Made by a program: the position numbers and the translations under genes
Shown: piece by piece, positions 6,626 to 11,889 of the stretch
Layout: the number at the start of each line of letters is the position of its first letter
How positions within the stretch are numbered: the first letter of the stretch is position 1
Assembly (NCBI GenBank): GCA_963770875.1
Contig: CAVYRE010000001.1
Coordinates: 148,064-212,063 of the forward strand
Direction: 5' to 3'
From: an uncultured Chloroflexia bacterium
GTDB lineage: Bacteria; Chloroflexota; Limnocylindria; QHBO01
Length of the DNA stretch: 64,000 bases
Notes under the pieces: generated by a model
The model's input: the letters and a program-made list of their open reading frames with translations, nothing else
What the model was told of the DNA's origin: nothing
The model's database searches: none

Positions 6626-7792
6626 ATGGCGGAGACGGCTGACGCGATCATCATCGGCGCCGGCGTCCAGGGAGCCTCGCTCGCCTTCCACCTGGCGGAG
6701 CGAGGCGTGCGCGCCCTGGTGGTCGAGAAGTCGGTCGTGGCGGCCGGTGCCACGGGGCGCTCGAGCGGCCTGGTGCGGATGCACTACGACGTCGAGGCGG
6801 AGGCCCGGCTGGCGAGGCGGTCGCACGCCTACTTCGCCGACTGGGGGCAGCGGGTCGGCGGCGAGTGCGGCTTCACCCAGGTCGGCTTCCTCCAGCTCGT
6901 CCCGCCAGACGAGGTCGAGGCGCTGCGTGCCAACACCGCCATGCAGCAGCGGATCGGGATCACGACCGAGATCGTGGAGGCCGATGCGGTGCGCCGCCTG
7001 CTGCCGGGGGTCGCCATCGGCGACGGCCAGGTGGCGGCGTTCGAGCCGCTCTCCGGCTACGCCGACCCGACCCAGACCGCCGGCTCGTTGATGGCCGCGG
7101 CCACGGCCCGCGGCGCCCGGCTGATCCAGGGCTGTGCCGTGACCGGCGTCCGCGTGGTGCGGGACCGGGTCGTCGGAATCGACACCTCCCGTGGCGCCTT
7201 CGACGCGCCGATCGTGGTCGACGCCGCCGGGGCGTGGGCCGGCCGGGTGGCGGCCATGACGGGGATCGAGCTCCCGTTGAAGGTCTGGCGCCACGACGTC
7301 GCCTACGTCCTGCGCCCGGCCGACATCCCCTCGCACCCGGTCTTCATCGACTTCGAGAACGCCTTCTATGCCCGCCCCGAGGGAGCGTCGCTGACCCTGG
7401 TGGCGCTGGAGGACGGCAACCCGATCTCCGACGACGCGGATGCGCCGGTCGACGCGGCCGCGCCGGGGTTCATCGAGAAGGCGGCGGAGCGGGTCATGCG
7501 ACGCCTGCCCGACTTCGCGCGGGCCGGGCTCCATTCGGCGCACTCCGGGCAGGACGGGATCACGCCAGACCAGCACCCGATCATCGGTCCGGCCGGGCCC
7601 GATGGCTTCTGGCTCGACTGCGGCTACTCGGGGACCGGCTTCAAGACCGCGCCAGCGGTGGGGGCCAGCCTCGCGCAGCTGATCACCGAGGGCGTCGCGT
7701 CGAACGACGACCTGGCGATCTACCGCCTGGAGCGCTTCGCCGAAGGGAAGCCGATCGTCGGCGAGCACCCCTACGGCGACATGTGGAGGTAG
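6626..7792 (+). CDS. FAD-dependent oxidoreductase, DAO family (SoxB/DadA-like)
   Basis: N-terminal dinucleotide fold AIIIGAGVQGASLAFHLAERG; DAO-type C-terminus GYSGTGF. Confidence 0.8.
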   Translation: MAETADAIIIGAGVQGASLAFHLAERGVRALVVEKSVVAAGATGRSSGLVRMHYDVEAEARLARRSHAYFADWGQRVGGECGFTQVGFLQLVPPDEVEALRANTAMQQRIGITTEIVEADAVRRLLPGVAIGDGQVAAFEPLSGYADPTQTAGSLMAAATARGARLIQGCAVTGVRVVRDRVVGIDTSRGAFDAPIVVDAAGAWAGRVAAMTGIELPLKVWRHDVAYVLRPADIPSHPVFIDFENAFYARPEGASLTLVALEDGNPISDDADAPVDAAAPGFIEKAAERVMRRLPDFARAGLHSAHSGQDGITPDQHPIIGPAGPDGFWLDCGYSGTGFKTAPAVGASLAQLITEGVASNDDLAIYRLERFAEGKPIVGEHPYGDMWR

Positions 7793-7894
7793 GGAGAGCT
7801 TCGTCGCGAGTCCCGTCGCGTCGGAGCCACTTCGTGCACTCGTGCTGCACGATGAGGCCCGGACATCGCCGCACCCGGTGCTAGCCTCTCGCCG

Positions 7895-10448: not shown

Positions 10449-11653
10449 ACGAGTTCGTCGAGACCCTGCTCGACCTCGAGTGGCACGCGCCCAAGCGCTC
10501 GTACGACGTGGTCATCATCGGCGCCGGTGGCCATGGCCTGGCGACCGCCTACTACCTCGCCACGCGCCACGGGATCACGAGCGTCGCGGTGCTGGAGGCC
10601 GACTACATCGGCTCGGGCAACAGCGGCCGGAACACGACGATCATCCGGGCCAACTACGGGATCCCCGAATCGGTCCGCTTCTACCAGCACAGCGTCGACC
10701 TGTACGCGACCCTGGAGGAGGAGACCGGGGCGATGATCATGCACGCCACCAAGGGGCTGCTGTGGCTGGCGCACACCGAGATGGCGATGCGCGCCGAGCG
10801 CTCCCGCGCCCTCATGAACCAGGCCTGCGGCGCCGAGACGGTGACGATCACGCCGGAGGAGGCGAAACAGCTCTGCCCCGCGCTCGACCTGACCGGCGGC
10901 GGCCGCTACCCGGTGCTGGGCGGCTCGTACCACCCCGGCGGCGCGACGGCACGCCACGACCGCGTGGTGTGGGCGTATGCCCAGGGGGCGATGCGGCGCG
11001 GCGTCGACATCCTGCCCCACACCCCGGTCACTGGCCTGCTGCGGGACGGCGGTCGGGTGGTCGGGGTCGAGACCGATGCCGGACCGATCTCCGCCGGCGT
11101 GGTCCTCAGCGCGGTCGGCGGCAACGTCACGACCGTGGCGGCGATGGCCGACCTGCGCCTCCCGATCCGCACCCACCCACTCCAGGCCCTCGTCACGAAC
11201 GCCTACGCCCAGGGCTTCGGGCCGATCGTCGCCTCCTCCGAGCTCCTCTGCTACGTCTCGCAGACGGCCCGCGGCCAGATGCTGATGGGCGCCGAGTTCG
11301 ACTCGCAGCCCTCGTACTCGCGCCAGTCCTCGTACGAGTTCCTGCAGAGCGTCTCGGCCAAGGTGATCCACCTGCTGCCATTCCTGCGCGACCTGCGGGT
11401 GTTGCGCACCTGGGCCGGCATCTGCGACATCAGCCCCGACTACAGCCCGATCATGGGCTTCACCGGGATCGACGGCCTGCTGATCACCACCGGCTGGGGG
11501 ACGTGGGGCTTCAAGGCGATCCCCGCCGGGGGCGAGGCGATGGCCGAGCTGATCGCCACGGGCGCCACGCCAACGCTGATCGCCTCGTTCGGCCTGGAAC
11601 GATTCGCCGCCGACCACGCCATGGCCGACCAGGGATCGGCGGGGACCCGCTGA
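10445..11653 (+). CDS. soxB: sarcosine oxidase beta subunit
   Basis: [39 protein letters not shown]... classic SoxB N-terminus; start at ATG overlapping upstream stop (ATGA); upstream part of track ORF 10259.. is junk. Confidence 0.85.
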   Translation: [402 protein letters not shown]

Positions 11654-11889
11654 TGCTGTGGATCACCTGCCCCATCTGCGGCGAGCGGCCCGCGAGCGAG
11701 TTCCGCTTCGGCGGCGAGCTGCCGTCAGTGCCCGATTGGATCGTGGGCGAGGAGGCGCGCAACGTCGACTACGTCTGGATGGTGAACAACGTCCGCGGCG
11801 TCACCACCGAGCGCTGGTTCCACGCCGCCGGCTGCCGCCGCTGGCTGACCCTCACCCGTGACACGGTGACCGATACGGTCGTGGCCTAG
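11653..11889 (+). CDS. soxD: sarcosine oxidase delta subunit
   Basis: 78 aa MLWITCPICGERPASEFRFGGE... with Cys/His zinc-type ligands; TGATG overlap with soxB. Confidence 0.7.
   Translation: MLWITCPICGERPASEFRFGGELPSVPDWIVGEEARNVDYVWMVNNVRGVTTERWFHAAGCRRWLTLTRDTVTDTVVA

What the first reader, a model, noticed from the sequence alone, without database searches (positions are those of the whole stretch)
6626..11889. Sarcosine-oxidase-like cluster with non-canonical gene order, a short alpha subunit and an extra beta-like flavoenzyme
Canonical heterotetrameric sarcosine oxidase operons run soxB-D-A-G. Here the order is:
- FAD oxidoreductase, DAO family (6626..7792);
- soxA-like (730 aa rather than about 960);
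- a 124-aa ORF in the SoxG position;
- soxB (clear signature);
- soxD.

All are tightly overlapped. A DrrAB-type ABC exporter is transcribed divergently just upstream. The rearranged order, the truncated alpha and the second beta-like enzyme suggest a diverged N-methyl-amino-acid or opine-type oxidase rather than bona fide sarcosine oxidase.
Basis: partly seen in the sequence, partly recalled or inferred. Interest (0 to 1): 0.5.

Follow-up and report, generated by a model that had tools for sequence, protein, structure and literature searches.

The report
Short iron-sulfur-type sarcosine oxidase operon
This is a complete four-subunit sarcosine-oxidase-type enzyme operon from an uncultured Chloroflexota bacterium whose large subunit is shortened and keeps two iron-sulfur-cluster motifs that the studied enzymes lack; the neighbouring 'extra' flavoenzyme gene appears to be an unrelated neighbour.

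Summary
The operon is alpha (7895-10087), gamma (10074-10448), beta (10445-11653) and delta (11653-11889).

- **Alpha.** The 730-aa alpha is not a truncation. It belongs to a conserved family of 729-755 aa in Ca. Limnocylindria and Acidimicrobiia, always in the order A-G-B-D. That order is a rotation of the canonical B-D-A-G.
All short alphas keep eight cysteines in two [2Fe-2S] motifs. These motifs are typical of opine, proline and HCN-type dehydrogenases. The crystallised sarcosine oxidases lack them.
- **Cofactor sites.** Beta keeps the His that carries covalent FMN, delta keeps the zinc site, and alpha keeps the folate domain.
- **Context in relatives.** In about 50 of 80 related loci the operon follows an MttB-family methyltransferase gene and a dimethylglycine-dehydrogenase-like gene. 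This points to sarcosine as substrate, in glycine betaine breakdown.
- **The 388-aa DAO gene.** It is separated by 102 nt, has its own promoter-like motif, lacks the FMN-site residues, and occurs without the operon elsewhere. It is a neighbour, not a subunit.

Verdict: an uncharacterised variant of a known enzyme family, of moderate interest.

The parts
7880..7887 (+). GCTAGCCT, a -10-like element (TAGCCT) 7 nt before the alpha start codon. Probably the promoter of a leaderless soxAGBD transcript.
   Evidence: The motif occurs 5 times in the window against 0.98 expected. 'GCTAGCCTCTCGCC'+ATG or a near variant precedes alpha in nearly all close relatives examined, whatever the upstream gene. 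Promoter function is inferred.
7895..10087 (+). Short SoxA-like alpha subunit, 730 aa. Domains: Fer2_4 (aa 7-75), reduced Rossmann domain (GGGRSG, aa 106-111), BFD-like/SO_alpha_A3 (aa 287-345), GCV_T (aa 376-627), GCV_T_C (aa 651-722).
   Evidence: PDB best hits are 2gag_A and 1vrq_A, E about 1e-65, over the C-terminal 430 aa only. The family is 729-755 aa in 76 genomes.
8015..8080 (+). Cys41-X4-Cys46-X2-Cys49-X12-Cys62, putative [2Fe-2S] site 1 in alpha.
   Evidence: Invariant in 32 homologues and present in 76 of 76 full-length short alphas. Absent from 1vrq_A and 2gag_A and from the Mesorhizobium and A. caldus alphas. It matches the motif defined in PMC4575208.
8759..8881 (+). Cys289-X-Cys291-X32-Cys324-X4-Cys329, putative [2Fe-2S] site 2 (BFD-like) in alpha.
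   Evidence: PF04324, 26.8 bits. All four Cys align with Cys of the P. horikoshii proline dehydrogenase partner subunit 1y56_A. Invariant in homologues. The last two Cys are replaced in 2gag_A and all four in canonical alphas.
10074..10448 (+). Short SoxG-type gamma subunit, 124 aa.
10445..11653 (+). SoxB-type beta subunit, 402 aa. FAD dehydrogenase with His171 (nt 10955-10957) at the covalent-FMN position and an RTW motif.
   Evidence: 1vrq_B E 5.5e-99, 43% identity over 386 ungapped positions. TIGR01373 404 bits against a cut-off of 529. His and RxW are conserved.
11653..11889 (+). SoxD-type delta subunit, 78 aa, with Cys6, Cys9, His57 and Cys61.
   Evidence: PF04267 83 bits. 2gag_D E 1.3e-14, with CPxCG...HAAGC aligned. 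The zinc-ligand role comes from published TSOX structures (my knowledge).
6626..7792 (+). Stand-alone DAO-family FAD oxidoreductase, 388 aa. Adjacent to the operon but judged not part of the complex.
   Evidence: Best PDB hit is 1y56_B, E 1.4e-40. It lacks the FMN His and RxW. There is a 102-nt gap and its own TAGCCT at 6612-6619. It is found without sox genes in L085, L086 and L087.

Best explanation
Genes 7895-11889 encode one four-subunit (alpha-gamma-beta-delta) flavoenzyme of the heterotetrameric sarcosine oxidase family. It is transcribed from its own promoter just upstream of alpha.

**Proposed mechanism.**
1. Beta uses FAD to oxidise the N-methyl C-N bond of sarcosine.
2. Electrons pass to an FMN covalently held by beta His171 at the alpha/beta interface.
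3. The methyl carbon is transferred to tetrahydrofolate on the GCV_T domain of alpha, giving glycine and 5,10-methylene-THF.
4. Delta (zinc finger) and gamma are structural.

**How it differs from the characterised enzymes.**
- Alpha lacks most of the second nucleotide-binding subdomain.
- Alpha keeps two [2Fe-2S] cysteine motifs, so electrons probably leave FMN through iron-sulfur clusters to an external acceptor (dehydrogenase mode) and not only to O2.

**Biological role.** It is the last demethylation step of glycine betaine / N-methylglycine catabolism in Ca. Limnocylindria.

**Status of each claim.**
- Shown: subunit identities, conserved cofactor-ligand residues, family conservation, genomic context in relatives.
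- Inferred: cluster binding, electron path, sarcosine as substrate.

The upstream DAO gene is an independent neighbour.
For: **Subunit identities.**
- Alpha, beta and delta.

**Conserved cofactor residues.**
- Beta His at the covalent-FMN position and RxW.
- Delta Cys3His.
- GCV_T domain matched full length at 246 bits, with the DVSTLGK motif invariant.

**Iron-sulfur motifs.**
- Eight Cys invariant in 32 homologues and present in 76 of 76 genomes.
- They match the [2Fe-2S] motifs of OpnDH, D-HypDH and L-ProDH, which are dye-linked dehydrogenases: PMC4575208.
- They align to the Cys of 1y56_A and of HoxU 5xf9_B.
- They are absent from crystallised TSOX alphas.

**Operon conservation.** A-G-B-D is conserved in 80 loci.

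**Context in relatives.**
- 44 loci have an MttB-family gene and 52 a DMGDH-like gene directly upstream. 26 have an Fe-ADH gene downstream. L083 also has an OpuAC-type importer.
- The DMGDH-like protein hits 5l46_A at E 5e-139.

**Own promoter motif:**
Against: - Alpha, beta and delta fall below NCBIfam cut-offs for the Sox subfamilies.
- Beta is about equally distant from TSOX beta (43%), a Mesorhizobium paralogue (42%) and the beta of an A. caldus locus in N-methylglutamate-pathway context (45%). Sequence alone therefore does not fix the substrate.
- The window itself has no MttB or DMGDH-like gene in 64 kb.
- The upstream DMGDH-like enzyme of relatives could not be distinguished from a sarcosine dehydrogenase. 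If it is one, the complex would be redundant or act on something else.
- Cluster binding is inferred from motifs only.
- The AF2 model of alpha was too poor (pLDDT 56) to check geometry.
- No electron acceptor was identified.
Confidence: 0.6

Rival explanations
1. Same four-subunit, folate-linked architecture, but the substrate is another N-methyl amine such as N-methylglutamate, dimethylglycine, N-methylalanine or an N-methylated osmolyte, not sarcosine.
For: - Scores are below the curated Sox cut-offs.
- Beta is equidistant from TSOX beta and from the beta of an A. caldus locus lying next to glnT and glutamate-synthase-like genes, the N-methylglutamate pathway context.
- The window and its closest relatives lack betaine genes nearby.
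- The short gamma and the remodelled alpha could alter the active-site entrance.
Against: - In about 50 of 80 relatives the operon directly follows an MttB-family gene and a DMGDH-like gene. That leaves sarcosine as the missing step.
- No gmaS or N-methylglutamate synthase genes lie next to any examined locus.
- The alpha-to-delta proteins of the window are 65-75% identical to those in betaine islands.
Confidence: 0.25
2. The 388-aa DAO protein is an alternative beta subunit that shares alpha (and gamma) with SoxB. This would give one scaffold two substrate specificities, like the two OdhB subunits of Bradyrhizobium opine dehydrogenase.
For: - The DAO gene adjoins the operon in at least 7 loci, in two arrangements: before alpha in L001, L003, L005, L006, L020 and L036, and after delta in L019.
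- Its best solved relative is the beta subunit of a heteromeric proline dehydrogenase, 1y56_B.
- There is a precedent for subunit exchange (PMC4575208).
Against: - It lacks the His that carries FMN and the RxW FMN-site motif kept by all SoxB-type betas.
- It is separated by a 102-nt gap and has its own -10-like motif.
- It occurs in the same ABC-2/MBL slot with no sox genes (L085, L086) and elsewhere (L087).
- Most loci have the operon without it.
Confidence: 0.08
3. An ordinary O2-reducing sarcosine oxidase. The cysteines would be structural or vestigial (for example zinc-binding) and the short alpha would have no functional consequence.
For: - All catalytic elements of TSOX are present.
- The NAD+ bound by canonical alpha has no known role (my knowledge), so losing part of that domain may be neutral.
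Against: - Eight Cys with exact spacing are invariant across 63-92% identical short alphas. They are also kept in a sister clade of about 950-aa alphas at about 40% identity.
- The clade containing the canonical reference alphas used here (Mesorhizobium SoxA-like, A. caldus) lost all of them, as have the crystallised TSOX alphas, which were not in the tree.
- Purifying selection of this kind argues for a functional metal site.
Confidence: 0.2

Closest known systems
Heterotetrameric sarcosine oxidase (TSOX, SoxBDAG) of Corynebacterium sp. U-96 and Stenotrophomonas maltophilia (PDB 1vrq/3ad7, 2gag)
   Same: - Four subunits: alpha, beta, gamma, delta.
- Beta is 43% identical and keeps the covalent-FMN His.
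- Delta keeps the Cys3His site.
- Alpha has the C-terminal folate-binding GCV_T and GCV_T_C domains.
- Gamma has the same fold.
   Different: - Alpha is 730 aa against about 965 aa. It lacks about 230 aa of the N-terminal linker and nucleotide-binding domains.
- Alpha has two 4-Cys [2Fe-2S] motifs that TSOX lacks.
- Gamma is 124 aa against 190-210 aa.
- Gene order is A-G-B-D.
- Scores fall below the NCBIfam cut-offs.
Flavin/[2Fe-2S] dye-linked dehydrogenases: opine dehydrogenase OdhABC, D-hydroxyproline dehydrogenase, archaeal L-proline dehydrogenase (1y56), HCN synthase HcnABC
   Same: - The Cys-X4-Cys-X2-Cys-X12-Cys and Cys-X-Cys...Cys-X4-Cys motifs.
- A DAO-family beta with RxW.
- FMN presumed at the alpha/beta interface.
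   Different: - Those enzymes have no folate (GCV_T) domain and no SoxD or SoxG subunits.
- The spacer in the second motif is 32 residues here against 15-20 there.
- The Fer2_4 module is a separate gamma subunit in opine and D-hydroxyproline dehydrogenases and, from my knowledge, a separate HcnA in HCN synthase.
Uncharacterised long (850-1010 aa) Fe-S-motif SoxA-like proteins from soil and freshwater metagenomes
   Same: Both Cys motifs and the GCV_T domain are present, and they are encoded with SoxB- and SoxD-like genes.
   Different: - Full-length nucleotide-binding domain.
- Gene order is mostly D-A-(G)-B.
- No MttB or DMGDH-like neighbours.
- About 35-43% identical to the window alpha.
N-methylglutamate dehydrogenase (MgdABCD)-type loci, e.g. 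Acidithiobacillus caldus megaplasmid (L082)
   Same: SoxB/D/A-type genes. Beta is 45% identical.
   Different: - The alpha there is long and Cys-less.
- It sits next to glnT and glutamate-synthase-like genes, which are absent here.

Membership tests
Heterotetrameric sarcosine oxidase (SoxA/B/D/G) | Four co-encoded subunits alpha, beta, gamma and delta | tested here: met
Heterotetrameric sarcosine oxidase (SoxA/B/D/G) | Alpha reaches the curated score of TIGR01372 (soxA subfamily, about 996-position model) | tested here: not met
   320.5 bits against a cut-off of 1164. Only model positions 523-994 match.
Heterotetrameric sarcosine oxidase (SoxA/B/D/G) | Beta reaches the curated score of TIGR01373 (soxB subfamily) | tested here: not met
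   403.8 bits against a cut-off of 529.45, although the match is full length and 1vrq_B scores E 5.5e-99.
Heterotetrameric sarcosine oxidase (SoxA/B/D/G) | Delta: SoxD family with Cys3His zinc site | tested here: met
   PF04267 83.4 bits against 27. C6, C9, H57 and C61 align with 2gag_D. TIGR01374 is below cut-off (75 against 116.5).
Heterotetrameric sarcosine oxidase (SoxA/B/D/G) | Gamma matches the SoxG sequence family (PF04268) | tested here: not met
   No hit even at E 10. Only the fold matches.
Heterotetrameric sarcosine oxidase (SoxA/B/D/G) | Beta His that carries covalent 8-alpha-N3-histidyl-FMN (His173 in Corynebacterium) | tested here: met
   Window His171 in ATARHDRV aligns with AKHDH of 1vrq_B and with canonical betas. 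That this residue carries FMN is from the literature (my knowledge).
Heterotetrameric sarcosine oxidase (SoxA/B/D/G) | Folate-binding aminomethyltransferase domain at the C-terminus of alpha | tested here: met
   GCV_T matched at positions 1-255 of 255, 246 bits. GCV_T_C 54 bits. The DVSTLGK motif is invariant.
Heterotetrameric sarcosine oxidase (SoxA/B/D/G) | Full two-subdomain NAD-binding region in alpha (about 960 aa protein) and no iron-sulfur cluster | tested here: not met
   730 aa. Deletions lie in the linker, the second Rossmann subdomain and the end of the first. Eight conserved Cys are present in two [2Fe-2S] motifs.
Heterotetrameric sarcosine oxidase (SoxA/B/D/G) | Sarcosine + O2 (+THF) gives glycine + H2O2 + methylene-THF | not testable with these tools
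   Only indirect evidence: MttB and DMGDH-like genes upstream in relatives.
Flavin/[2Fe-2S] dehydrogenases (OpnDH, D-HypDH, L-ProDH, HcnABC) | Cys-X4-Cys-X2-Cys-X11-12-Cys motif | tested here: met
   C41-X4-C46-X2-C49-X12-C62. Motif as defined in PMC4575208.
Flavin/[2Fe-2S] dehydrogenases (OpnDH, D-HypDH, L-ProDH, HcnABC) | Cys-X-Cys-X15-20-Cys-X4-Cys motif | tested here: inconclusive
   C289-X-C291-X32-C324-X4-C329. The pattern is the same but the spacer is longer. All four Cys align with 1y56_A. PF04324 26.8 bits against 26.
Flavin/[2Fe-2S] dehydrogenases (OpnDH, D-HypDH, L-ProDH, HcnABC) | Three-subunit or alpha/beta architecture without a folate domain or SoxD/SoxG | tested here: not met
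   GCV_T, SoxD and a SoxG-fold subunit are present.
N-methylglutamate dehydrogenase (MgdABCD) | Clustering with gamma-glutamylmethylamide synthetase and N-methylglutamate synthase genes | tested here: not met
   No such genes in the window neighbourhood or in L083/L084. Contrast L082.

The most novel reading that the evidence does not exclude
The short-alpha complexes, together with the long Fe-S-motif SoxA-like clade, would be a previously unrecognised class of iron-sulfur-dependent, folate-linked N-methyl-amine dehydrogenases. In this class electrons leave covalent FMN through two [2Fe-2S] clusters to a respiratory or ferredoxin-type acceptor and not to O2.

They would be the functional and evolutionary intermediate between the HcnABC, opine and proline dehydrogenases and the classical H2O2-forming sarcosine oxidases. 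They would let abundant freshwater and soil Chloroflexota and Acidimicrobiia demethylate sarcosine from glycine betaine without making peroxide.
Probability: 0.35. Interest if true: 0.6.

Novelty: new variant of a known kind. Interest (0 to 1): 0.45.

Why it matters
**Enzyme evolution.** Characterised heterotetrameric sarcosine oxidases are textbook diflavin enzymes without iron-sulfur clusters, and their alpha-bound NAD+ has no known role. Here is a large, conserved, uncharacterised branch that keeps both [2Fe-2S] motifs of the ancestral dehydrogenases and has shed part of the nucleotide domain. It gives a concrete test of how the family moved from dehydrogenase to oxidase chemistry.

**Ecology.** The operon sits in betaine-type islands (importer, MttB-family methyltransferase, DMGDH-like enzyme) in Ca. 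Limnocylindria and Acidimicrobiia. Automatic annotation mostly calls the alpha 'glycine cleavage T protein' or '(2Fe-2S)-binding protein' and the gamma 'hypothetical', although a few alphas are labelled 'sarcosine oxidase subunit alpha'. Sarcosine and betaine demethylation capacity in these abundant uncultured lineages is therefore probably under-counted.

Tried and rejected
**Dead ends.**
- AlphaFold2 of the 730-aa alpha with 32 homologues gave pLDDT 56 and pTM 0.34. This was too poor for a fold search or for checking Cys geometry.
- An Rfam scan of the whole window found nothing, so there is no riboswitch before the operon.
- A tblastn of a long Fe-S-motif alpha against annotated plasmids found nothing above 40% identity, so no annotated context was available for that clade.
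- An exact look-up of the window's DAO protein to name the source contig returned 'not on record'. The source was inferred from L001 (92% identical alpha, Ca. Limnocylindria).
- Literature searches for an Fe-S-containing heterotetrameric sarcosine oxidase, or for this operon in Limnocylindria/Chloroflexi, returned nothing relevant.

**Ideas considered and rejected.**
- Alpha as a truncated pseudogene: the length is conserved in 76 genomes.
- The 124-aa ORF as a spurious high-GC ORF: it has 554 homologues and a confident SoxG fold.
- Opine oxidase or HCN synthase: the folate domain and the delta and gamma subunits are present.
- A functional link to the divergent ABC-2 exporter: it is syntenic only in the closest relatives, and it flanks the same slot when the operon is absent.
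Full report
**Observation**

| Gene | Coordinates | Size |
|---|---|---|
| DAO-family protein | 6626-7792 | 388 aa |
| SoxA-like alpha | 7895-10087 | 730 aa |
| Unnamed ORF | 10074-10448 | 124 aa |
| SoxB-like beta | 10445-11653 | 402 aa |
| SoxD-like delta | 11653-11889 | 78 aa |

- Pfam and NCBIfam confirm DAO, Fer2_4 + Fer2_BFD/SO_alpha_A3 + GCV_T + GCV_T_C, DAO/soxB and SoxD.
- A divergent ABC-2 exporter lies upstream.
- One detail is wrong. Only alpha to delta overlap, by 14, 4 and 1 nt. 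The DAO gene is 102 nt away from alpha.

**The 124-aa ORF is a gamma subunit**

- It has no Pfam, NCBIfam or PDB sequence match, even at E = 10.
- It has 554 homologues, all 'hypothetical'.
- It sits between alpha and beta in essentially all 80 related genome loci, at 33-80% identity.
- An AlphaFold2 model built on 25 homologues is confident (pLDDT 92.9).
- It is a SoxG reduced from about 200 aa to about 124 aa.

**The short alpha is a family, not a truncation**

- More than 120 clusters at 70% identity or above, of 723-756 aa, were found, mostly from Chloroflexota.
- A scan of one genome per species found 384 loci. The best 80 are Ca. Limnocylindria/Limnocylindrales, with some Acidimicrobiia and other Actinomycetota. 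The top hit (92%) is Ca. Limnocylindria, the likely source of the window.
- Full-length short alphas are 729-755 aa in 76 loci.
- Against canonical 961-971-aa alphas, the missing about 230 residues lie in three places: the linker after the Fer2_4 domain, the second Rossmann subdomain, and the end of the first. The GxGxxG loop is kept.

- Alpha carries C41-X4-C46-X2-C49-X12-C62 and C289-X-C291-X32-C324-X4-C329.
- All eight Cys are invariant in 32 aligned homologues. Both motifs occur in 76 of 76 full-length short alphas.
- Watanabe et al. assign the same two motif types to [2Fe-2S] clusters in opine, D-hydroxyproline and L-proline dehydrogenases. Those enzymes are dye-linked dehydrogenases, not oxidases (PMC4575208).
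- The second motif aligns Cys-for-Cys with 1y56_A, the partner subunit of the P. horikoshii proline dehydrogenase. The first region aligns with the [2Fe-2S] subunit HoxU.
- The crystallised sarcosine oxidase alphas have no Cys at these positions. Neither do the Mesorhizobium and A. caldus alphas.

**Where the short alpha sits in the family**

- A search of 1.84 billion representatives and a rough NJ tree put the short alphas among other Fe-S-motif alphas.
- That group includes a large uncharacterised clade of 850-1010 aa.
- The Cys-less alphas among the representatives form a separate clade that includes the canonical Mesorhizobium and A. caldus reference alphas; the crystallised enzymes were not in the tree.
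- The tree has no support values.

**The other subunits look catalytically intact**

- Beta is 43% identical to Corynebacterium SoxB over 386 ungapped positions.
- Beta keeps the His at the covalent-FMN position and the RxW motif.
- Delta keeps CPxCG...HAAGC.
- The GCV_T domain is matched end to end.

**Gene order**

- A-G-B-D is a rotation of B-D-A-G.
- In 80 metagenomic loci of the long Fe-S clade the commonest order is D-A-(G)-B, another rotation.
- Order is therefore fluid in this family and says little about function.

**Function from context**

- The window's own neighbours are uninformative, and it has no MttB or DMGDH-like gene.
- In relatives whose alpha is about 73% identical or less, the operon is preceded in 44 of 80 loci by an MttB-family methyltransferase gene. 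In 52 of 80 it is preceded by a 760-aa DAO-FAO_M-GCV_T gene.
- In 26 of 80 it is followed by an Fe-ADH gene. Some loci also have an OpuAC-type ABC importer.
- The 760-aa protein matches dimethylglycine dehydrogenase (5l46_A, E 5e-139).
- The other neighbours match betaine- or choline-related models only below cut-off.
- This reads as betaine to dimethylglycine to sarcosine to glycine, with the complex doing the last step.
- The long Fe-S clade lacks these neighbours.
- Caveat: I could not separate dimethylglycine dehydrogenase from sarcosine dehydrogenase for the upstream enzyme.

**The 'extra beta-like' gene**

- Its best solved relative is the beta subunit of archaeal proline dehydrogenase (1y56_B, E 1.4e-40).
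- It lacks the FMN His and the RxW motif.
- It has its own TAGCCT 6 nt before its ATG.
- GCTAGCCTCTCGCC-ATG precedes alpha in nearly all close relatives examined, whatever lies upstream. Both genes probably give leaderless transcripts.
- Homologues at 76-78% identity sit in the same slot between the ABC-2 exporter and a metallo-beta-lactamase-fold gene with no sox genes (L085, L086). One sits in an unrelated context (L087).
- Many loci have the operon without it, and in L019 it lies after delta.
- It is best read as an independent neighbour. The subunit-exchange precedent keeps a small probability alive.

**Verdict**

- This is a genuine, complete sarcosine-oxidase-family operon of an uncharacterised variant type: short Fe-S-motif alpha, short gamma, rotated order.
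- It most likely demethylates sarcosine and possibly works as a dehydrogenase.
- It is a new variant of a known kind, of moderate interest.

Noticed in passing
window 7880-7894 and 6612-6625; L001-L036 and L084 upstream of alpha: A -10-like TAGCCT lies 6-7 nt before the ATG of both alpha and the DAO gene. 'GCTAGCCTCTCGCC'+ATG or a near variant precedes alpha in nearly all close relatives examined. GCTAGCCT occurs 5 times in the window against 0.98 expected, also at 2166, 31580 and 44423(-). This suggests leaderless transcription in this lineage.
   Followed up: partly
window 7833-7851: A perfect inverted repeat, CGTGCA-N7-TGCACG, lies about 30 nt upstream of the alpha promoter-like motif. Relatives L003, L005 and L009 carry a different inverted repeat (TGCACAAC...GTTGTAC) at the same place. 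These may be operators.
   Followed up: no
L085 4383-8900, L086 2559-8879, window 3943-13261: The interval between the ABC-2 exporter and a metallo-beta-lactamase-fold gene is a variable slot. It holds the DAO gene alone, the sox operon alone, or both in either order. The sox cassette seems to have been inserted or lost repeatedly.
   Followed up: partly
L088-L167 (metagenome loci); P0271-P0308: There is a large uncharacterised clade of 850-1010-aa SoxA-like proteins with both [2Fe-2S] Cys motifs. They are mostly encoded in the order D-A-(G)-B and have no betaine genes nearby. The substrate is unknown.
   Followed up: partly
L083 934-15241 and about 45 other loci (e.g. L024, L033, L038): A conserved island reads: OpuAC-type importer, enolase-superfamily (MR_MLE) gene, non-Pyl MttB-family methyltransferase, DMGDH-like gene, soxAGBD, Fe-ADH. 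No corrinoid protein gene was seen next to the MttB homologue in L083.
   Followed up: partly
L083 7537-9819: The dimethylglycine-dehydrogenase-like protein is only 760 aa and seems to lack the C-terminal GCV_T_C barrel. Its match ends at about residue 734 of the 841-aa 5l46_A.
   Followed up: no
window 11886-12776 (- strand): A 296-aa ORF with no Pfam hit is conserved downstream of delta in the closest relatives only. In some of them only residues 76-295 match, so the true start may lie further in.
   Followed up: no
L015 11759-11994, L036 8441-8443, L054 11719-12917: The sox genes appear frameshifted or split in several MAG loci whose isolate names start with MFD. These are probably assembly errors, not pseudogenes.
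   Followed up: no
window 16621-19476: Two PspC-domain genes lie here, one fused to a histidine-kinase ATPase domain, followed by a LuxR-type response regulator. This is an envelope-stress-type module, and it also lies near the DAO gene in L086.
   Followed up: no
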